Below are positions 2,410 to 43,807 of a stretch of 50,364 bases of DNA, piece by piece (positions within the stretch are counted from its first letter, which is position 1; every line of letters starts with the position of its first letter). The position numbers were made by a program, and so were the translations under genes. A model generated the notes under the pieces. The model was not told where the DNA came from. It searched no databases and was given only the letters and a program-made list of their open reading frames with translations. Source of the stretch: a virus (lineage: Duplodnaviria; Heunggongvirae; Uroviricota; Caudoviricetes); IMG/VR virus record IMGVR_UViG_2563366831_000011, positions 1 through 50,364 of that record; one strand, given 5' to 3'.

Positions 2410-3441
2410 TTACGCGAATTCTTCCACGATCGCCATGCCAGTAGCACCATCACCACCGGTAAATGCCGCACCGGTAAACCCAAGGTCATACGCGCCACCA
2501 CCACCGGATCCGGGAGCTGCGCCAGCAATACCGGCCTGAGAACCCGCCCGGCCACCGCCGCCAAAATACGACGCCCCGCCGTTGCCCGTCAGAAGGCTTG
2601 AGCCTGTCTGTCCATCTGAGCCGGTACCACCGTTGATCCTGATATCTCCGGTCGCCGCCGTACCTCCGGCGCCGCCGGCGGTATTGGACACGCCTGACTT
2701 CACGCCGCCTTTCCCGCCAGGAGCTGAGAACAGGCTGGCAAACGAGGTGGCCCCACCATCTGCACCACTTACTGCGCCAACTCCGCCCTTACCACCCTTG
2801 CCGACAGTAATCGCATAAGAACTGGCAGCAGACAGGTCAACCCATACGATAATGGTCGCGCCCGCGCCGCCGCCAGCACCGGAGAAGGTTTCTGTATTGT
2901 TGTAGGCCTGGCAGCCGCCACCGCCGCCACCGGCACCTGTCAACGTTACTTTTGCATAACGGGCCAGAGGAGATCGCGTATAGGTTCCGTTTGCATAGAA
3001 AGCTTTTGGAGCGCCAAGTGAACGCCCGACAAAACCAGAGGAATCAGATATTCCGAGGTTATAACGGGCTTCATTTACCGCATCCTCACCGGCATCTTTA
3101 ATTTCTGACAGGTTATTGCTGATCTGCAGGAACGATAACAATGATCCGGCTGTCATTAAATTCGCGACAATGTCATTCGTTGACCATACGCGTGCCGTTG
3201 TTCCTTCCTGACCACGAATTACTGTCATCACGTCACCGGATACAGACGTTACGTGCATAATTTCAGAAATTGTTTTCGTGGCCGCGTCGGTTATCGTTAA
3301 TTTGAAATAACTCTGCCCAGATACAGGAGAAGGGAATAAAGCCCCCGCTCCAGTTCCCACGGTAATAACGGTAGCGGACGCACTAATACCCGCAGCGAGA
3401 ACACTCTTTGCGTTATTATTGGCTAATAGCTTCAGCGCCAT
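2410..3441 (-). CDS. Tail fibre protein with glycine-rich C-terminal domain
   Basis: 343 aa; C-terminal half is a Gly-rich repeat domain (GGGGGGCQAY...GGKGGVGAVSGADGG...AYDLGFTG) paralogous to the C-terminus of the 6914..8209 product. Confidence 0.7.
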   Translation of the reverse strand: MALKLLANNNAKSVLAAGISASATVITVGTGAGALFPSPVSGQSYFKLTITDAATKTISEIMHVTSVSGDVMTVIRGQEGTTARVWSTNDIVANLMTAGSLLSFLQISNNLSEIKDAGEDAVNEARYNLGISDSSGFVGRSLGAPKAFYANGTYTRSPLARYAKVTLTGAGGGGGGCQAYNNTETFSGAGGGAGATIIVWVDLSAASSYAITVGKGGKGGVGAVSGADGGATSFASLFSAPGGKGGVKSGVSNTAGGAGGTAATGDIRINGGTGSDGQTGSSLLTGNGGASYFGGGGRAGSQAGIAGAAPGSGGGGAYDLGFTGAAFTGGDGATGMAIVEEFA

Positions 3442-3452
3442 ATATACCCCAG

Positions 3453-3770
3453 TTAAATAATAGAATTATCAGAACGAACATCGCAGATAGTAAATGTCAC
3501 GACGCCGATGACAGTAACATCGTCCAGGGCTTCACCCTCGATCACTTCGCCATCTTCGGTAATAAGTGATCTTCCTCTCAGCTTGGCAAGCTCCGTCCCG
3601 CCGCCATGCTGTATAAGCAGTTGGCTACCCTGCTTTGGCTTCAGGGAGATATCTAGTACAACGTAACCACCAGATCGCTCGAAAACTAGCGTGTTTGGGC
3701 CGACATTGCAGATCGAGTTAACAGACAACCTTTGCTCGACGTAGTCCGTCGCTGGTGAAGGGAATCCCAT
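3453..3770 (-). CDS. Hypothetical protein, second gene of an SOS-box operon
   Basis: 105 aa from the internal start MGFPSP; its ATG overlaps the upstream stop as TAATG (translational coupling); no family recognised. Confidence 0.5.
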   Translation of the reverse strand: MGFPSPATDYVEQRLSVNSICNVGPNTLVFERSGGYVVLDISLKPKQGSQLLIQHGGGTELAKLRGRSLITEDGEVIEGEALDDVTVIGVVTFTICDVRSDNSII

Positions 3771-4009
3771 TAGATCACCCTCCCCATGTTGGCCATCATC
3801 CACAGGCGGTTTTCACTATGCTCTGCCGTTTTATCGATGAAGTAAGACTGCTCGCGAGCGATCCAGGCGTTAGCCTCCACCTCGGAAAAGTGAATGCTAC
3901 GCCGGCGCAGCGCGGTAATGAAGTCGCGGGTGTGAAGGTACTGGAACCCCTTAGAACTGCGCAATACCGACTCGCGGAATGCCTGATTGATGTCTGACTG
4001 TCGATGCAT
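3770..4009 (-). CDS. Hypothetical protein, first gene of an SOS-box operon
   Basis: 79 aa from MHRQSD; GGAGG Shine-Dalgarno 7 nt upstream of the ATG; LexA box immediately upstream. Confidence 0.5.
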   Translation of the reverse strand: MHRQSDINQAFRESVLRSSKGFQYLHTRDFITALRRRSIHFSEVEANAWIAREQSYFIDKTAEHSENRLWMMANMGRVI

Positions 4010-4026
4010 GTCTTCCCTCCGATAAA

Positions 4027-4046
4027 TACTGTTTTTATATACAGTA
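4027..4046 (-). promoter_or_regulatory. LexA (SOS) box TACTGTTTTTATATACAGTA
   Basis: Matches the CTGT-N8-ACAG consensus with flanking TA/TA; sits 18 nt upstream of the 3770..4009 start codon, overlapping the likely -10. Confidence 0.6.
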
Positions 4047-4080
4047 GTTTTATTAGAAGGGAAGCTCAAGTGGTTGACAA

Positions 4081-4758
4081 TCAGTTGCCGTACTGGTCTC
4101 TATAGTATGATTTTATTTGTGAAATTTCTGATGTTGTCTTCGAAGTTGAAAAGATAAGAACTTCCGCATAGTTAACGTTATTCGCGGCAGTCGCCGCCAG
4201 CGTTAGCGGAGCATTCTGGTAGGTAATAGACGATGCCGCGGCTACGGTTATGGTCGCGTCGTTGACATACACCGTCTCGGTGTCAGTTATCGGGTCGTAG
4301 TTCACGATCACAAGATCAATGCCTGTGGATAAGGTCACCCCTCCCTGCTGGGTTGATGACCCTGTTTTGTAATAGTAGAGCTTGTTATCTGTCTGTGCCT
4401 GTAGCCGCAGATGGGGCCCCGCGATTAAAAAGGTAGCTTGTGTGGTGTTATCTCGCTTGAAAGCGAAGGCGTAGCAATAGCCGTTTTCCGCTGTAGCAGG
4501 GTAGACATTCTCAGATGTGACGCCGCCATTTGCGGTTAGCGCACTTTTCATCGTCTTGATTCCGTTCAGCGTCGACGCTGAGATTGCAGAACCTAATGCA
4601 ATATTCATATCGCCAGCGCGGTCTGCAAGAGTTGATACTCGCCAGTCAAAATAGTGCGAAGGGTTCCACCTGGCTGTTTTATCATCGCGCTCGGTATAGG
4701 TGGACTGAATACCGCTATTAACGGCGTTTGGAACCTGTAAAAAAGTACAAATTGCCAT
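4081..4758 (-). CDS. Hypothetical tail-fibre-associated protein
   Basis: 225 aa; AAGGA SD; directly downstream of the tailspike gene on the same strand; Ser/Thr/Asn-rich, beta-rich appearance. Confidence 0.5.
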   Translation of the reverse strand: MAICTFLQVPNAVNSGIQSTYTERDDKTARWNPSHYFDWRVSTLADRAGDMNIALGSAISASTLNGIKTMKSALTANGGVTSENVYPATAENGYCYAFAFKRDNTTQATFLIAGPHLRLQAQTDNKLYYYKTGSSTQQGGVTLSTGIDLVIVNYDPITDTETVYVNDATITVAAASSITYQNAPLTLAATAANNVNYAEVLIFSTSKTTSEISQIKSYYRDQYGN

Positions 4759-4769
4759 GGGTGTATTCC

Positions 4770-6899
4770 TTATTTTCTTAGGGATTGTACGGCGTAGTTC
4801 AGCAGTACTCGTTTTGCCTGATACGCGCCGATAATTCTGGCACCTCTGGCGTTAGGATGTGGGTCTGCGGGATTTGTTGTCGAATATGCATAGCCGTTCT
4901 GAAATGCAAAATTAGAATTCTTTATGAGGTCTCTTACATTGAATCCCAGCATTTTATAGGTTGACTGGATATTATCAAAAACGCTCTCACGCTTAATGTG
5001 ATTGTCGCTATACCAGCGCTCAAGGAAAATAGGCAATTTAGGAATCGCTGATTGAACACGTTCAACTATTGCACTATATCCGTTGAGAAAATCTGTGTCA
5101 GAAAGAGCATAATCATTTTCCCCAAGATTAATAAACGCGACATCCGGCTGAAAATATTGTATCCAGTATTGCTGATAAGACGCTGTTTGATTCAGGTAAT
5201 ACTGAAATGTTGCACCTCCTCTTGCGTAACGAATGACTCTGACGCCGCCAGCAGAGTTGATGCAATTGAAGCTGATCAGGGCAGGATAGCCTGCCTGACC
5301 AGATGCGGGAGGTTCAATTTCCAGGGCGAATCGACCTGAGTTCGGCCCCAGACCCTCCACCCTAACGATTGTTATCGTTTCGCTACCCTCAGGGTTATTC
5401 GGTATTGTGGCTGTTTGCCATTCCCCTGAACCCGCCGGGCCGGTGGAACCATCGTCATTCCTGTCGGTTGCACGGAACCGGAACTGACTAGATGTTCCGG
5501 CGTCTCCGGTACCAGTAAAACCGACCTCGACAACGTCGTGCTGATAAATGGGGTTGCTGCGGGCCGAATCTTTTACGCGAAAAAACAGGTTAGTTCGTCC
5601 AGCCCACGGTACTAGAGCAAAACTCAATGGTGCACATTTTTTCCCATAGGTCTGGTTATCGACCCAGCCAGTATAAACTAACTCCATATTCAGCAGATCT
5701 CTTGACGCTGTGTTATCGTTTGACGGTGCAAAATAACCGATACCCCCATGCCCAAGATTTGCTGCAAAAAGGCTGTACATAGCGTCAATGGCACCCAATC
5801 CCCCTGTGCCTGCAGTGAGAGAGTCACCCTGACAAAAAATAGTTAGATATCCTCCTGTGTATGCCCTTTCCTGCATCGCGATCATGTAATCAAGAAGACC
5901 AGTCTCTGGCAAGCTTGATGCAGCCTGAGAACCTCCTGACCCCGGCAATAGCAATTGGTCGTCGCTTCCGAGAATAGCGAATGGCGAAGATGAGTAGCCC
6001 TTTAAAATAGAACATCCGGCATCTTCTAAAGAATCAGTAGTTAAAAAAGATGCCATCTGGTTATCGCTTCCCATTACAGATAATGGCTTGCCTGGGATAC
6101 CGTAACCATATTTGATATCTGCCCCAGCATCGCGCATTCTGTCGCTATCATTGCCGTATTCAAGGACCTGATAATCAGTGCCTATGATTACGAATTTTTC
6201 ATCTCCGTATCCACTAAGAAATCTTACCCCTGCAAATATCCACGTTGAGGGCATCTGACGTCCGGTAGGCTGCAGCGTTCCGTCAACGTTTACTACCTCA
6301 ATAGCGAGCGTGTCGTCATTGTCAGTGCGATAATAAGCATTTGACCCAACAGGAATATTTCCAGCGTCTGCATCTGCCTGCGCCGCAGCCAGCGTCGGAA
6401 ACTCGCGGATTGTCCCTGTTATGGCCGCTGTACCCGGCTGCTTTGCCTGCAATACGGCCACGCCTGCTTTGTTTTGATACTGCCATGCAGCAGAAAGCGC
6501 ATCTGGACCTTGGGCTACCCAGAATGACTGCCCTTCAGTCGTTGCGGCCAGCCCGGCAATAGTGCCATCAGGATCGCTTGAGGTTTTATAGAATGTGAAC
6601 TTATTCCGTGCATATTCAGAGGCATCATTCTTGTACTCTTCAGCCTGCGCAGCTGAACCTGCGGCTGCCGTTGCCGATTCGGATGAGGCAGCGGCCGAAG
6701 TAGCAGCACTTTGTTCGGCCGTTTCTGCTGAGTTCTTGGCAGCTTCAGCCGCAGTTGCAGCATTAATCGCTTCCTGAGTGGTGGCGCTAATATCCTGATA
6801 GCCCTGCTGGACCTCGATCAGGTACTGCTTTGCCTCTGCGGCACTCACGGACGCCTCTGCCGCGAACTGTGCCGTTTGCTGTGTGTCGGTAGTCGCCAT
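4770..6899 (-). CDS. Tailspike/tail fibre with C-terminal SGNH (GDSL-like) esterase domain
   Basis: 709 aa from MATTDTQ (AGGAAA SD; tracked ORF extends to a GTG at 6920); Ala-rich N-terminus; SGNH blocks visible: FCQGDSLTAG (block I), FINLGENDYA (block III), PADPHPNARG (block V). Confidence 0.7.
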   Translation of the reverse strand: MATTDTQQTAQFAAEASVSAAEAKQYLIEVQQGYQDISATTQEAINAATAAEAAKNSAETAEQSAATSAAASSESATAAAGSAAQAEEYKNDASEYARNKFTFYKTSSDPDGTIAGLAATTEGQSFWVAQGPDALSAAWQYQNKAGVAVLQAKQPGTAAITGTIREFPTLAAAQADADAGNIPVGSNAYYRTDNDDTLAIEVVNVDGTLQPTGRQMPSTWIFAGVRFLSGYGDEKFVIIGTDYQVLEYGNDSDRMRDAGADIKYGYGIPGKPLSVMGSDNQMASFLTTDSLEDAGCSILKGYSSSPFAILGSDDQLLLPGSGGSQAASSLPETGLLDYMIAMQERAYTGGYLTIFCQGDSLTAGTGGLGAIDAMYSLFAANLGHGGIGYFAPSNDNTASRDLLNMELVYTGWVDNQTYGKKCAPLSFALVPWAGRTNLFFRVKDSARSNPIYQHDVVEVGFTGTGDAGTSSQFRFRATDRNDDGSTGPAGSGEWQTATIPNNPEGSETITIVRVEGLGPNSGRFALEIEPPASGQAGYPALISFNCINSAGGVRVIRYARGGATFQYYLNQTASYQQYWIQYFQPDVAFINLGENDYALSDTDFLNGYSAIVERVQSAIPKLPIFLERWYSDNHIKRESVFDNIQSTYKMLGFNVRDLIKNSNFAFQNGYAYSTTNPADPHPNARGARIIGAYQAKRVLLNYAVQSLRK

Positions 6900-40571: not shown

Positions 40572-41288
<717 letters not shown>

Positions 41289-41415: not shown

Positions 41416-42273
41416 ATGAAGAAAGCAGCAATTTTAATTGATGCGGGTTTTTTCATGCAGCGTGTTCATGCTACGCATCGTAAACACTTCGCCGAGCATG
41501 AACTGACTGCGCAATGCATAATGAAAGTAATATGGTCAATGGTTCTTTCCCATCTTAATGGAAAACGTCAATCACAAGAACGTAGGGAACCGCTTGAGCT
41601 TTATAGAATTTACTTCTATGACTGTCCACCACTCGACATTCAAACACGCCTTCCACTTCCTGAGCATGGCAATAAGACGCCTGGTCGCAAGAATTTCAAA
41701 CTCGAAAAATCATATATTCTGAGAACGGAGCTGCATGAAGAGTTAAGAAAAACTCGAAAAACAGCCTTAAGATTAGGGAATCTTGTTGATAATAAGCGAT
41801 GGCAACTAACTACATTCTCCCTTGATGCTCTGATGAAAGGAACGAAAAAATGGGATGAACTGACAAATGATGATTTTTACTATGACATCAAACAAAAACA
41901 AGTTGATATCAAGCTAGGGATGGATATCACGACTTTAGCTTATGAAAAACTTGTTGATGTAATTGTCCTTGTTGCTGGGGACTCAGACTTTGTGCCTGCC
42001 GCCAAACACGCCAGAATTAAAGGTATTGATTTTATTCTTGATCCACTAAGACAGAATGTTACCCCATCACTGTCAGAGCACATTGATGGAGTTCAGTCAT
42101 ACAGCTTGATATCAGGACTTGCCGATGCTTTACATGTTGAGCCAGACCCGGCACCTGACTGGTGGGAAGATCGAAAAAAAGGCAAGCCTAGAGGAAAAAA
42201 CAATAGCGGTAAACGCAGGTATGGAAACACTCAAGCTGAGTCTGCAAAGAAACATCAAAGAAATAAACGATAA
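41416..42273 (+). CDS. NYN/PIN-like putative ribonuclease in the rex slot
   Basis: 285 aa; N-terminal AAILIDAGFF and VIVLVAGDSDFVPAAKHARIKGIDF match NYN-domain acidic motifs; basic Lys/Arg-rich C-terminal tail; same strand as cI, upstream of oL/pL. Confidence 0.55.
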   Translation: MKKAAILIDAGFFMQRVHATHRKHFAEHELTAQCIMKVIWSMVLSHLNGKRQSQERREPLELYRIYFYDCPPLDIQTRLPLPEHGNKTPGRKNFKLEKSYILRTELHEELRKTRKTALRLGNLVDNKRWQLTTFSLDALMKGTKKWDELTNDDFYYDIKQKQVDIKLGMDITTLAYEKLVDVIVLVAGDSDFVPAAKHARIKGIDFILDPLRQNVTPSLSEHIDGVQSYSLISGLADALHVEPDPAPDWWEDRKKGKPRGKNNSGKRRYGNTQAESAKKHQRNKR

Positions 42274-42282
42274 TCCCATCAA

Positions 42283-42308
42283 CCCGGCCACCGAGCCGGG
42301 TTTTCTTT
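42283..42308 (+). terminator. Intrinsic terminator (t-imm-like) after the NYN-like gene
   Basis: CCCGGC-CACCGA-GCCGGG followed by TTTTCTTT. Confidence 0.6.
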
Positions 42309-42463
42309 GCCTCACGATCGCCCCACCTAAAAACACATAACCAATTGTATTTATTTTAAAATTAATAGGTGCAACTCACTAAACAACGCAATTCTGATCT
42401 CTCGATCACCTCCCAAGCCACACAACCCTGCAAAAAATAAATCTATATAAAAAACATACAGAT

Positions 42464-42526
42464 AACCATCTGCGGTGATAAATTATCTCTGGCGGTGTTG
42501 ACACAAATACCACTAGCGGTGATACT
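42464..42526 (+). promoter_or_regulatory. Left operator oL1-3 and promoter pL
   Basis: Three TATCACCGC-type operator sites; -35 TTGACA at 42498..42503 and -10 GATACT at 42521..42526, as in lambda pL. Confidence 0.8.
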
Positions 42527-42565
42527 AAACACATCAGCAGGACGTACTAACCACCATGAAGGTGA

Positions 42566-42596
42566 CGCTCTTAAAAATTAAGCCCTGAAGAAGGGC
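42566..42596 (+). promoter_or_regulatory. nutL (boxA CGCTCTTAAAAATTAA, boxB GCCCTGAAGAAGGGC)
   Basis: Both boxes read directly downstream of pL. Confidence 0.8.
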
Positions 42597-42767
42597 AGCA
42601 TTCAAAGCAGAAGGCTTTGGGGTGTGGTGAAGGGTTCATGGATGGGAATATGTCGCACGTAAAGCGGCGAGGCCTGCGGAACTATTGCCGAATTGAAGTC
42701 GGCCGAAGCAGGTCGAAATGGGTCTCCCACCTACCACACCACCAAAGCTAACTGACAGGAGATGAAC

Positions 42768-42896
42768 ATGAAACATAACGAACACTTTATGGCTTGGTTG
42801 AAGTCAATGCGTGATGAAGCAAAGCGTCCTGAAACAACAATGACGCGAATCGTGGAAATCTTCTCCTGCATCAGCAAGTACGCAACCTGCCAATAA
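42768..42896 (+). CDS. Small hypothetical protein (42 aa) inserted between nutL and N
   Basis: Uses the GGAG SD that serves N in lambda; product MKHNEHFMAWLKSMRDEAKRPETTMTRIVEIFSCISKYATCQ; followed by hairpin GGCCCC-GCTGA-GGGGCC. Confidence 0.4.
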   Translation: MKHNEHFMAWLKSMRDEAKRPETTMTRIVEIFSCISKYATCQ

Positions 42897-42937
42897 CTGT
42901 CGGCCCCGCTGAGGGGCCATTTATCTAAGGATGATAT

Positions 42938-43270
42938 ATGGACTCTCAAACACGCCGCCGCGAACGTCGCGCAGAGAAACAGGCTCAATGGAAAGCAGCA
43001 AATCCCCTGTTGGTTGGGGTAAGCGCAAAACCAGTTAACCGCCCTATTCTCTCGCTGAATCGCAAACCGAAATCACGAGTAGAAAGCGCACTGAATCCGA
43101 TAGACCTTACGGTGCTGGCTGAATACCACGAACAGATTGAAAGCAACCTGCAGCGTATTGAGCGCAAGAATCAGCGCACATGGTACAGCAAGCCACGCAG
43201 TGAAATGGGGGTGACTTGCTCAGGCCGCCAGAAGCAACGCGGAAAATCAATTCCAGCTTATTACGATTGA
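42938..43270 (+). CDS. N: Antitermination protein N
   Basis: 110 aa; MD.QTRRRERRAEKQAQWKAANPLLVGVSAKPVNRPILSLNRKPKSRVESALNPIDLTVLAEYH matches lambda N as recalled; AAGGA SD. Confidence 0.9.
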   Translation: MDSQTRRRERRAEKQAQWKAANPLLVGVSAKPVNRPILSLNRKPKSRVESALNPIDLTVLAEYHEQIESNLQRIERKNQRTWYSKPRSEMGVTCSGRQKQRGKSIPAYYD

Positions 43271-43278
43271 GGTGAGCC

Positions 43279-43416
43279 ATGCTCAAGAAAGTCAAACGCC
43301 GACTTTACAAGGAAGGTAGATATTCATGCCAGTTGCCAAAATGCGACACAACAAAATGGAGTGTCGATGATTGGTGTAACTGGATAGATAGATACGGAAC
43401 TTGGTGGGATAAATAA
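43279..43416 (+). CDS. Small Cys/Trp-rich hypothetical protein
   Basis: 45 aa MLKKVKRRLYKEGRYSCQLPKCDTTKWSVDDWCNWIDRYGTWWDK with GAGGTGAG SD. Confidence 0.3.
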   Translation: MLKKVKRRLYKEGRYSCQLPKCDTTKWSVDDWCNWIDRYGTWWDK

Positions 43417-43540
43417 CAGGTAACTTAAGCGTATTTACTTTCGCGGCAAACCACATATTTGAGGTGAGATATGGAAGAAGAATTTGAAGAGTTCGAAGAG
43501 CATCCTCAGGATGTGATGGAACAATACCAGGACTATCCGT

Positions 43541-43631
43541 ATGACTATTGATACAAATCAATGGTGTGGACAATACGAACGACGGCAATGATTGCCAGAG
43601 AACTTGGTAAACAGAATAACAAGGCTGCCTG
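43541..43631 (+). pseudogene. ral: ral (restriction alleviation) remnant with internal deletion and frameshift
   Basis: Begins MTIDTNQWCGQ like lambda Ral, stops after 16 codons; the Ral C-terminus IRTTAMIARELGKQNNKAA is encoded in another frame ending at 43631. Confidence 0.5.
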
Positions 43632-43768
43632 ATGGTGGCCTTTATTTTTGGCATAAACAACAGAATAAACACTGCACTGTGTATTCATTCCAACGAGTGA
43701 ATACACGGAGCAATGTCGCTCGTAACTAAACAGGAGCCGACTTGTTCTGATTATTGGAAATCTTCTTT

Positions 43769-43795
43769 GCCCTCCAGTGTGAGGGCAATTTTTTT
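43769..43795 (+). terminator. Intrinsic terminator-like hairpin in the pL operon
   Basis: GCCCTC-CAGTGT-GAGGGC followed by AATTTTTTT. Confidence 0.45.
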
Positions 43796-43807
43796 GACGG
43801 AGGATAT

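What the first reader, a model, noticed from the sequence alone, without database searches (positions are those of the whole stretch)
42600..42937. A 42-codon ORF and hairpin inserted between nutL and N, taking over the ribosome-binding site that serves N in lambda
pL and nutL are lambda-like, and CACACCACCAAAGCTAACTGACAGGAG matches the lambda N leader as recalled. Here that SD is followed by an ORF encoding MKHNEHFMAWLKSMRDEAKRPETTMTRIVEIFSCISKYATCQ, then a GC hairpin (GGCCCC-GCTGA-GGGGCC), then a new AAGGA SD and N. The first product of the pL transcript is therefore a new small protein, and N translation has been re-engineered.
Basis: partly seen in the sequence, partly recalled or inferred. 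Interest (0 to 1): 0.5.

Follow-up and report, generated by a model that had tools for sequence, protein, structure and literature searches.

The report
Stp-like small gene ahead of N
A lambda-type prophage carries a rare extra 42-codon gene in front of its antiterminator gene N, using the ribosome-binding site that serves N in lambda; it belongs to a conserved, unnamed family whose first dozen residues match the functional core of phage T4's anti-restriction peptide Stp.

Summary
Compared with lambda and CL707, 184 bases (42763-42946) replace 15 bases between N's Shine-Dalgarno sequence and N codon 4. The new segment holds a 42-codon ORF (42768-42896), a GC hairpin (42902-42918), a new SD (42927-42931) and N's first three codons (MDS instead of MDA).

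The ORF is a real gene:
- dN/dS is 0.12-0.22 against a subfamily that is 71% identical.
- There are 44 protein clusters in Enterobacterales and Pseudomonas.
- AlphaFold2 gives a confident two-helix hairpin.

It is rare: 8 of 5426 complete E. coli genomes and none of 50,697 phage records. In the lambdoid prophages examined it is the first ORF after the repressor gene on the leftward side, usually 20-21 nt after the conserved leader hairpin. Distant members sit in other mobile-element contexts, including two Pseudomonas plasmids, with no shared neighbour. It is therefore not just a leader peptide for N.

At profile level, residues 2-13 match residues 4-15 of T4 Stp (hhalign 95%, P = 2.9e-8; no column shuffle comes close). 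That stretch is the part of Stp where loss-of-function mutations cluster.

Best reading: a long Stp-like anti-restriction peptide made immediately and without N. This is inferred, not shown. Effects on N translation are untested. It is a new variant of a known kind.

The parts
42498..42526 (+). pL promoter (TTGACA, 17 nt, GATACT), overlapping the oL operators
   Evidence: Only promoter-like site found in 42200-43800. Aligns with the annotated pL of CL707 and the oL operators of lambda.
42566..42596 (+). nutL: boxA CGCTCTTA (42566-42573) and boxB GCCCTGAAGAAGGGC (42582-42596)
   Evidence: Identical to lambda nutL in alignment A1. Corresponds to the boxA and boxB features annotated in CL707.
42613..42748 (+). 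Structured leader hairpin (position of the structured N leader in lambda). The base stem GGCUUUGGGGUGUGGUG / CACCACACC-A-CCAAAGC is conserved; the interior is a swappable allele of the HK97/933W/CL707 type.
   Evidence: Fold of 42597-42790: -64.6 kcal/mol, z = -3.5, 0 of 200 shuffles as stable. Eight stem variants in related loci keep the pairing through compensatory changes and keep a single bulged base. The interior is 100% identical in CL707 and 97% in HK97/933W.
42757..42761 (+). Shine-Dalgarno AGGAG, the one that serves N in lambda, here 6 nt before the small ORF's ATG
   Evidence: Alignment A1; sequence read.
42763..42946 (+). The inserted module (184 nt), replacing lambda/CL707 ATCCAGATGGATGCA. 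It contains the small ORF, the hairpin, a new SD and N codons 1-3.
   Evidence: Alignment A1. In 8 E. coli genomes the 178-nt query 42760-42937 matches with a single base difference. The MDS-type N start was found only in contigs that also carry the ORF.
42768..42896 (+). Small ORF, 42 aa: MKHNEHFMAWLKSMRDEAKRPETTMTRIVEIFSCISKYATCQ. A long Stp-like peptide, identical to RefSeq WP_000682198.1.
   Evidence: dN/dS 0.12-0.22. 44 clusters. AlphaFold2 helices 2-19 and 25-41, pLDDT 89.8. hhalign against Stp: 95.1%, P = 2.9e-8, with controls.
42902..42918 (+). GC hairpin GGCCCC-GCUGA-GGGGCC followed by AUUUAUCU; looks like a weak intrinsic terminator
   Evidence: Flagged by the terminator scan. -14.7 kcal/mol. 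Not conserved in the other subfamilies, which carry different hairpins without a U tract.
42910..42949 (+). Alternative RNA hairpin that excludes the 42902-42918 hairpin. It pairs N's AUG and codons 2-4 and leaves N's SD in the loop.
   Evidence: It is part of the minimum-free-energy fold of 42885-42960 and 42890-42965. N's AUG has an unpaired probability of 0.06. Weak evidence: z = -1.6, and no covariation is available.
42927..42931 (+). New Shine-Dalgarno for N: AAGGA here, GAGGA in the five other copies aligned, 6 nt before the ATG
   Evidence: It is the only base in 42763-42946 that differs between the window and the aligned copies; all 8 E. coli matches show one mismatch over 42760-42937.
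42938..43270 (+). N antiterminator, lambda type, 110 aa, starting MDSQTRRRERR (lambda starts MDAQ)
   Evidence: Pfam N36 at 5.3e-26 and phrog_271 at 1e-25; alignment A1.

Best explanation
The 42-codon ORF is a genuine small protein gene. It encodes a two-helix peptide whose N-terminal helix carries the functional core motif of T4 Stp (HNEH-[VIF]-M-x-[WF]). T4 Stp inhibits type IC restriction enzymes.

The gene arrived as a 184-nt module that recombined in at N's Shine-Dalgarno sequence and at N codon 4. As a result it now sits 21 nt after the structured pL leader, essentially where N starts in lambda, and N follows 41 nt later with its own SD.

Because it lies upstream of N and of every terminator that needs N, it is the first protein made from pL after infection or induction, and it does not depend on N. 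That timing is what a phage needs to protect unmodified incoming DNA from a type I restriction enzyme.

Shown:
- the insertion and its exact junctions;
- purifying selection on the protein;
- a conserved family;
- the position as first ORF after the repressor gene in the lambdoid prophages examined;
- profile-level similarity to the Stp core.

Inferred:
- that the ORF is translated from 42768;
- that it inhibits restriction (or otherwise targets a type I enzyme complex);
- that lambda's N- and RNase III-dependent translational control now acts on this ORF rather than directly on N.
For: - **Insertion and RBS takeover:** alignment with lambda and CL707. The ORF starts 20-21 nt after the conserved leader stem in two subfamilies.
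- **Coding:** 14-16 synonymous against 18-21 non-synonymous differences to the 67-71% identical subfamily, dN/dS 0.12-0.22. The antisense ORF is interrupted in L009.
- **Family:** 10 representatives at E <= 0.001 in the profile search. 44 clusters from E. coli, Klebsiella, Citrobacter, Buttiauxella and Pseudomonas, none with a Pfam domain or a name.
- **Fold:** AlphaFold2 helical hairpin, pLDDT 89.8.
- **Synteny:** in L009-L017 and L034-L035 it is the first called gene on the pL strand after the repressor region, in the interval before N (L014 has one interposed gene on that strand); in L037 two other called genes lie between repressor and ORF.
- **Acts in trans:** distant members lie in non-phage gene arrays (some with an integrase or ParA-like gene) and on two Pseudomonas plasmids, with no conserved neighbour.
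- **Stp link, library scans:** PF08133 at 17.7-19.2 bits for three members; phrog_6763 at E = 1.4e-4.
- **Stp link, profile comparison:** hhalign of the family against seven Stp peptides gives 95.1% probability, P = 2.9e-8, score 33.7. 300 column shuffles give mean 8.0, maximum 19.1.
- **Stp link, decoy test:** an HMM built from Stp peptides alone ranks 32 family segments directly after the Stp peptides, ahead of every unrelated segment among 8870; the most divergent members (L029-L031) fall just below the first decoys.
- **Function of the matched stretch:** it is Stp residues 4-15. Loss-of-function mutations in Stp cluster at residues 4-14, and the last 8 residues are largely dispensable (PMC3014915).
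- **Relevance to lambdoid phages:** plasmid-expressed Stp rescues the lambdoid phage HK022 from EcoprrI. Lambda's Ral works on type IA enzymes, and the type IC enzyme EcoR124I does not respond to it (PMC12707154). In this window ral is a frameshifted remnant.
Against: - The similarity to Stp covers only 12 columns.
- The window's own ORF scores 7.6 bits against the Stp HMM (E = 1.5 among 8870 segments), and no family member reaches Pfam's gathering score of 25.
- The link therefore rests on the profile and on intermediate members (P0007, P0016, P0029), and convergence on a short motif cannot be excluded.
- The family is 42-45 aa, with a conserved second helix that Stp lacks.
- How Stp itself works is unknown.
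- There are no expression data.
- All E. coli copies are near-identical, so selection within this subfamily cannot be measured.
- An Stp-like peptide would be expected to trigger PrrC in prr+ hosts. No tRNA repair gene was recognised in the stretch examined (about 40.5-45 kb); the rest of the window was not searched.
Confidence: 0.55

Rival explanations
1. The ORF works mainly in cis, as an upstream cistron that sets how much N is made. Its translation would switch the intercistronic RNA between the 42902-42918 hairpin, which is terminator-like and leaves N's start free, and the 42910-49 hairpin, which buries N's AUG. It would also move lambda's nutL/RNase III-dependent translational repression away from N.
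For: - It sits 36-41 nt before two unrelated N types in two subfamilies.
- The module brings N's SD and first three codons with it, and those codons (GAC UCU CAA) form one arm of the alternative hairpin.
- The MDS-type N start was seen only together with the ORF.
- In lambda, N and Nus factors bound at nutL repress translation at the SD that follows the structured leader (PMC5725501).
- In the P0002 subfamily the end of the ORF and the CCUC after its stop are predicted to pair with N's SD and start region.
Against: - The amino-acid sequence is under purifying selection, and the model is a folded hairpin.
- Family members exist where there is no N gene at all.
- In Citrobacter prophages the ORF lies before the leader hairpin, 159-190 nt from the next gene.
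- The intercistronic folds are not better than shuffled sequence (z from -1.6 to +1.1), differ between subfamilies, and have no covariation support.
- This reading can also be true alongside a trans function.
Confidence: 0.2
2. It is a trans-acting early protein with a different target from Stp's, for example a host protease, a cell-division or SOS component, or another defence system. On this reading the N-terminal resemblance to Stp is convergent or reflects only a generic helix.
For: - Only 12 columns match, and every individual Pfam score is below the family threshold.
- The conserved second helix (R27, E30, I31, Y38) has no counterpart in Stp.
- The pL operon is known to hold several small host-directed proteins, such as cIII and Kil, which appear in the related loci.
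- Fold searches and searches of PADLOC, NCBIfam and the PDB give nothing.
Against: - The motif sits at the same N-terminal position in both families and coincides with Stp's mutationally defined core.
- The profile score is far outside the shuffle distribution.
- The Stp HMM separates nearly all family members from the decoys.
Confidence: 0.2
3. It is a chance ORF in a non-coding insertion and is not translated.
For: It is short, and neither PHROGs nor Pfam has a family for it.
Against: dN/dS of 0.12-0.22 with saturated dS. 44 clusters across two bacterial orders, with conserved length and motifs. A strong SD at the right spacing in each subfamily examined (AGGAG, or GGAGG followed by TCAAC and the ATG). 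A confident structure model.
Confidence: 0.03

Closest known systems
T4 Stp (Pfam PF08133, phrog_6763): a 26-aa peptide that inhibits type IC restriction enzymes (EcoprrI, EcoR124I) and thereby activates the PrrC anticodon nuclease
   Same: Both are small early phage peptides. Both carry the N-terminal motif HNEH[VIF]M-x-[WF], at residues 3-10 here and 5-12 in Stp. That is the region where Stp loss-of-function mutations cluster. Stp-like peptides are already spread over unrelated lytic phages: T-even, Drexlerviridae, Kagunavirus, Skatevirus.
   Different: This family is 42-45 aa against 25-30 aa and has a conserved second helix. It does not reach the Pfam threshold. It is found in temperate lambdoid prophages, other integrated gene arrays and plasmids, not in lytic phages. 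Its activity is untested.
Lambda pL leader and N (nutL, structured RNase III-sensitive hairpin, N Shine-Dalgarno)
   Same: pL, nutL, the base stem of the hairpin and the SD are identical or nearly identical to lambda. N is 110 aa of the lambda type.
   Different: In lambda the SD serves N directly. Here it serves the small ORF, and N is moved 170 nt downstream behind a hairpin, with a new SD and new codons 2-3.
Phage morons (extra genes inserted between genes that are adjacent in related phages, as described for HK97 and HK022; my own knowledge)
   Same: It is a discrete presence/absence module relative to CL707, which is identical to the window in the leader hairpin interior. A terminator-like hairpin follows it.
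   Different: It has no promoter of its own. It depends on pL and on the resident SD, and it lies inside a regulatory leader rather than between two structural or accessory genes.
First-expressed anti-restriction genes: T7 gene 0.3 (ocr), ArdA in plasmid leading regions, lambda Ral
   Same: The logic of position is the same: the inhibitor is encoded where it is expressed first after DNA entry. Like Ral it is a pL-operon product.
   Different: There is no sequence or fold relationship to Ocr, ArdA or Ral. Ral lies downstream of N, needs antitermination and acts on type IA enzymes.

Membership tests
T4 Stp / Pfam PF08133 (anticodon nuclease activator) | Scores at or above the Pfam gathering threshold (25 bits) | tested here: not met
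   The window ORF has no PF08133 hit. The best relatives reach 17.7-19.2 bits.
T4 Stp / Pfam PF08133 (anticodon nuclease activator) | N-terminal core motif, Stp residues 4-14: (F/W/H)HNEH(V/I)MQ(F/W)YR | tested here: met
   hhalign of family against Stp profile: 95.1%, P = 2.9e-8, family residues 2-13 against Stp 4-15. Shuffle control maximum 19.1 against 33.7. Decoy ranking. The window peptide has KHNEHFMAWLKS: five identities with T4 Stp over the 12 aligned residues (H, N, E, H, M).
T4 Stp / Pfam PF08133 (anticodon nuclease activator) | Peptide of about 26 residues | tested here: not met
   42 aa here and 40-57 aa in the family, against 25-30 aa for Stp peptides.
T4 Stp / Pfam PF08133 (anticodon nuclease activator) | Inhibits type IC restriction and activates latent PrrC | not testable with these tools
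   Needs plating and tRNA-cleavage assays.
Lambda-type pL/nutL/N leader | pL with oL operators, nutL boxA and boxB, large leader hairpin, SD about 10 nt after the hairpin | tested here: met
   Alignment with lambda and the annotated CL707; fold z = -3.5; stem covariation.
Lambda-type pL/nutL/N leader | N is the cistron served by the leader's SD | tested here: not met
   The SD at 42757-42761 is followed by the 42-codon ORF. N starts at 42938.
Moron | Extra gene between elements that are adjacent in related phages | tested here: met
   Absent from lambda and CL707, present here, with clean junctions.
Moron | Own promoter and own terminator | tested here: inconclusive
   No promoter-like site other than pL. 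A terminator-like hairpin with a weak U tract is present.
Cis-acting leader peptide or attenuator for N | Found only in cis with the regulated gene, with the peptide sequence itself unconstrained or a short arrest motif | tested here: not met
   Homologues occur without any N gene, and the whole peptide is under purifying selection.

The most novel reading that the evidence does not exclude
The family is an unrecognised, widespread class of long Stp-type inhibitors of type I restriction enzymes, used by temperate phages, integrative elements and plasmids. In lambdoid phages it has also been wired into N's control circuit. The peptide would inherit the N/Nus/RNase III-dependent translational repression that lambda applies to N, giving a self-limiting pulse of anti-restriction activity. 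N would escape direct autorepression and instead become conditional on the upstream cistron, through two mutually exclusive RNA hairpins.
Probability: 0.15. Interest if true: 0.7.

Novelty: new variant of a known kind. Interest (0 to 1): 0.5.

Why it matters
- **The lambda circuit is altered at a well-studied point.** N has always been taken as the first pL product, and its leader (nutL, the RNase III hairpin and autorepression of translation) is a textbook control circuit. Here, and in a set of related prophages, another protein occupies that exact slot. This gives a natural variant for testing how much of N's control depends on where its start codon sits.
- **Stp may be one member of a wider family.** Stp has been treated as a peptide of T4-like phages. 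A longer relative in temperate phages and on Pseudomonas plasmids would make Stp-type inhibition of type I restriction a general strategy of mobile elements. It would also supply new natural triggers for PrrC-type backup defences.
- **The experiments are cheap.** The peptide is 42 aa, and restriction-alleviation and PrrC-activation assays already exist.

Tried and rejected
- **Rfam** on the window region and on a related leader: nothing above noise.
- **tRNA/tmRNA scan** of the leader variants: none found.
- **Single-sequence Pfam and PHROGs scans** of the window ORF: only noise (GCK domain, a methyltransferase).
- **PADLOC, NCBIfam and a PDB profile search:** nothing.
- **Foldseek of the two-helix model against BFVD:** no hit at E <= 0.001, as expected for a helical hairpin.
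- **tblastn against 50,697 phage records:** the window peptide and a Pseudomonas-type relative found no match.
- **Species-representative genomes:** only one E. coli contig.
- **Conserved partner gene:** none found in the non-phage contexts.
- **Literature:** no paper mentions WP_000682198, and nothing relevant was retrieved for CL707. The Court et al. review could not be opened.
- **Antisense 85-aa ORF (42731-42988, minus strand):** rejected because it is interrupted in L009.
- **Real terminator in front of N:** considered, but the hairpin with its U tract is not conserved in the other subfamilies.
- **Start at ATG 42762 (44 aa):** rejected because that ATG abuts the SD, and most family members start at MKHNEH.

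Full report
**1. What is in the sequence**

The window is oriented so that the leftward early transcript of a lambda-immunity prophage reads on the + strand.
- A lambda-type cI gene lies at 40575-41288.
- A 285-aa ORF with an NYN domain (41416-42273) takes the place of rexAB.
- A terminator-like hairpin lies at 42281-42302.
- pL is at 42498-42526, nutL boxA at 42566-42573 and boxB at 42582-42596.
- From 42613 to 42748 the RNA folds into a large hairpin: -64.6 kcal/mol for 42597-42790, z = -3.5, with 0 of 200 shuffles as stable.
- Then follow AGGAG (42757-42761) and a 42-codon ORF (ATG 42768, TAA 42894-42896).
- After the ORF come the hairpin GGCCCC-GCUGA-GGGGCC (42902-42918, -14.7 kcal/mol), AAGGA (42927-42931) and N (42938-43270).
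- N is 110 aa, starts MDSQTRRRERR, and matches Pfam N36 at 5e-26.

**2. It is an insertion relative to lambda**

An alignment of the window with lambda, CL707 and four E. coli prophages (A1) shows the following.
- Everything up to GGAGA (42762) is shared with lambda, and everything from CAAACACGCC (42947) is shared again.
- In between, lambda and CL707 have 15 nt (ATCCAGATGGATGCA) and the window has 184 nt.
- The module therefore brings the ORF, the hairpin, a new SD for N, and N's first three codons (ATG GAC TCT instead of ATG GAT GCA).
- An exact search for the MDS-type N start in viral contigs found only contigs that also carry the ORF.
It is the interior of the leader hairpin in a common allele, 100% identical in CL707 and 97% identical in HK97, 933W and many Stx phages.

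**3. How common it is**

- The pL-to-N query region matches 1359 of 5426 complete E. coli genomes. The ORF module is present in only 8, each with one base different from the window over the 178-nt query.
- In the copies aligned, the single difference within the module is G instead of A at 42927, in N's SD.
- The six prophages inspected carry three different repressor proteins, and the window's lambda-type cI is a fourth. They use two different leader interiors.
- RefSeq annotates the product as WP_000682198.1, 'hypothetical protein'.
- None of 50,697 phage records encodes it (tblastn).

**4. It is a real gene**

- A word-indexed search found diverged homologues at 67-71% identity.
- Against these, the window ORF shows 14-16 synonymous and 18-21 non-synonymous differences. 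dS is 1.1-1.7 and dN 0.20-0.24, giving dN/dS of 0.12-0.22.
- The long antisense ORF (42731-42988) is interrupted in L009.
- A profile search of 1.8 billion cluster representatives found 10 at E <= 0.001.
- A second database search with a 10-sequence alignment found 44 clusters. They come from E. coli, Klebsiella aerogenes, Citrobacter murliniae, Buttiauxella gaviniae and several Pseudomonas species. All lack a name and a Pfam domain.
- Residues K2, H3, N4, H6, L14, E17, A18, R27, E30, I31 and Y38 are invariant or nearly so.
- AlphaFold2 gives two helices (2-19 and 25-41) with mean pLDDT 89.8.

**5. Where the family sits**

- *Nine loci of the 67-71% subfamily.* In all nine the ORF is the first called gene on the pL strand after the repressor region, before an N-like gene (L014 has one interposed gene on that strand). 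That gene starts 36-40 nt downstream and is of a different type from lambda N (Pfam N_peptide, 80-90 aa).
- *Distance from the leader hairpin.* In six of these nine loci the ORF's ATG lies 20 nt after the 3' arm of the hairpin. In the window and L002 the distance is 21 nt.
- *The hairpin stem.* Its base stem is kept in eight sequence variants through compensatory changes, with a single bulged base, while the interior varies from 35 to 114 nt.
- *Extra segments.* In L011, L015 and L017 further sequence has been added between the hairpin and the ORF, so this is an insertion hot spot.
- *Citrobacter prophages.* Here the ORF comes before the leader hairpin, 159-190 nt from the next gene.
- *Distant members.* They lie in arrays of small unnamed genes, variously next to an integrase and a ParA-like gene (L027), RadC and DUF4942 (L026) or UmuDC-like genes (L029, L036). 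They also occur on two Pseudomonas plasmids.
- *No shared neighbour.* An all-against-all BLAST of neighbouring genes found none.
- *Conclusion.* The protein is a stand-alone product that acts in trans. It is not merely a leader peptide tied to N.

**6. The Stp connection**

- *Library scans.* Scanning family members against the profile libraries gave one recurring hit. PF08133, 'anticodon nuclease activator', scored 17.7-19.2 bits for P0007, P0016 and P0029 (threshold 25). phrog_6763, 'activator of host PrrC lysyl-tRNA endonuclease', reached E = 1.4e-4. Both families are T4 Stp.
- *The Stp sequences.* I recalled the Stp sequence as [26 protein letters not shown]. tblastn confirmed it at 100% next to ndd in T4-like phages. 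I then collected six more Stp-like peptides from Drexlerviridae, Kagunavirus, Skatevirus and others.
- *Profile against profile.* hhalign of a 24-sequence family alignment against the seven Stp peptides gave 95.1% probability, P = 2.9e-8 and score 33.7 over 12 columns. Family residues 2-13 align with Stp residues 4-15.
- *Shuffle control.* 300 column shuffles of the family alignment scored 8.0 +/- 2.2, with a maximum of 19.1.
- *Decoy test.* An HMM made only from the Stp peptides was run against 8870 six-frame segments from the window and all loci. After the Stp peptides themselves it ranked 32 family segments ahead of the first unrelated segment. The most divergent members (L029-L031) fell just below the first decoys. 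The window's own ORF scored only 7.6 bits.
- *What this supports.* The link holds at family level, carried by intermediate members, and is not significant for the window peptide alone.
- *Multiple testing.* Corrected for the roughly 63,000 families scanned, the hhalign P value still corresponds to about 2e-3.

**7. Why that matters functionally**

According to the T4 review PMC3014915:
- Stp is a 26-residue peptide that relieves restriction by the type IC enzymes EcoprrI and EcoR124I, but not by type IA enzymes.
- In doing so it activates the latent PrrC anticodon nuclease.
- Loss-of-function mutations cluster at residues 4-14, and removing the last eight codons reduces activity only moderately.
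- Plasmid-borne Stp rescues the lambdoid phage HK022 from EcoprrI.

The stretch shared with the new family is therefore Stp's functional core.

The 2025 restriction-modification review (PMC12707154) adds two points. Lambda Ral acts on type IA enzymes, and the type IC enzyme EcoR124I does not respond to it. Stp's own mechanism is unknown.

In this window ral is only a frameshifted deletion remnant (43544-43632).

A position ahead of N means expression that is immediate and independent of N. That suits a protein that must act before a type I enzyme cuts unmodified DNA. This last step is inference.

**8. Consequences for N**

- In lambda, N and the Nus factors bound at nutL repress translation at the SD that follows the structured leader, and RNase III modulates this (PMC5725501, citing Wilson et al. 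1997 and 2002).
- Here that SD belongs to the small ORF, so this control is expected to fall on the peptide. N is translated from a separate SD 170 nt further on.
- Folding of the intercistronic RNA gives two mutually exclusive structures. One is the 42902-42918 hairpin. The other is a 42910-42949 hairpin that pairs N's AUG and codons 2-4, giving the AUG an unpaired probability of 0.06.
- The N codons that came in with the module form one arm of the second hairpin.
- This hints at coupling, but the evidence is weak. The fold has z = -1.6, the other subfamilies have different and non-significant folds, and no covariation can be measured because all copies are identical.
- The first hairpin with its AUUUAUCU tail was flagged as terminator-like, but this feature is not conserved elsewhere.

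**9. Verdict**

- The added finding is that the ORF belongs to a conserved, unannotated family whose N-terminal helix matches the active core of T4 Stp.
- I rate a long Stp-like anti-restriction peptide as the most likely function (about 0.55). The main rivals are a mainly cis-regulatory role (0.2) and a different trans target (0.2).
- It is a new variant of a known kind: a known peptide motif in a longer protein, in temperate and other mobile elements, placed in a new position inside the N leader.

Noticed in passing
window 43544-43632: ral is a deletion remnant. About 13 N-terminal and 21 C-terminal codons of lambda Ral are present in different frames, so the phage appears to lack functional Ral.
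   Followed up: partly
window 41416-42273: A 285-aa ORF with an NYN (RNase-like) domain (Pfam 6.8e-9; phrog_5783 at 1.5e-119, function unknown) occupies the place of rexA-rexB between cI and oL. CL707 has an annotated hypothetical ORF in the same position.
   Followed up: partly
window 42630-42731; L002 3097-3221; L009-L016 leaders: The interior of the conserved N-leader hairpin is a swappable cassette of 35-114 nt with at least eight alleles, while the base stem covaries. The allele in JCKP02 and Ecol_545 ends in GGTTCGACTCCAGCCACCA, which resembles a tRNA T-arm plus acceptor end. It gives only a 10-bit tmRNA hit in Rfam and no ARAGORN call.
   Followed up: partly
L003 and L004, about 2690-5100: In E. 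coli Ecol_545 and C1 an IS21-family element (ISEc12) has inserted into N a few codons after its start. N is destroyed but the small ORF is intact.
   Followed up: no
L017 about 3790-4000; L011 and L015 about 3840-4000: Additional segments are inserted between the leader hairpin and the small ORF. In L017 this is an uncalled ORF of about 63 codons starting at GTG, flanked by a repeated CATCGGAGGT(A/C)AA linker. This suggests serial insertion of modules that bring their own SD at this site.
   Followed up: partly
window 43471-43551: A 26-codon, extremely acidic ORF (MEEEFEEFEEHPQDVMEQYQDYPYDY) lies just upstream of the ral remnant, at the position of lambda orf28.
   Followed up: no
window 43279-43416: A 45-aa cysteine- and tryptophan-rich ORF immediately after N belongs to DUF5484 / phrog_1871, function unknown.
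   Followed up: no
L038 (phage U136B) 601-681 and 1251 onward: In this T1-like phage the annotated Stp-like peptide lies a few genes upstream of a putative polynucleotide kinase/phosphatase, echoing the T4 pairing of Stp with Pnk.
   Followed up: no
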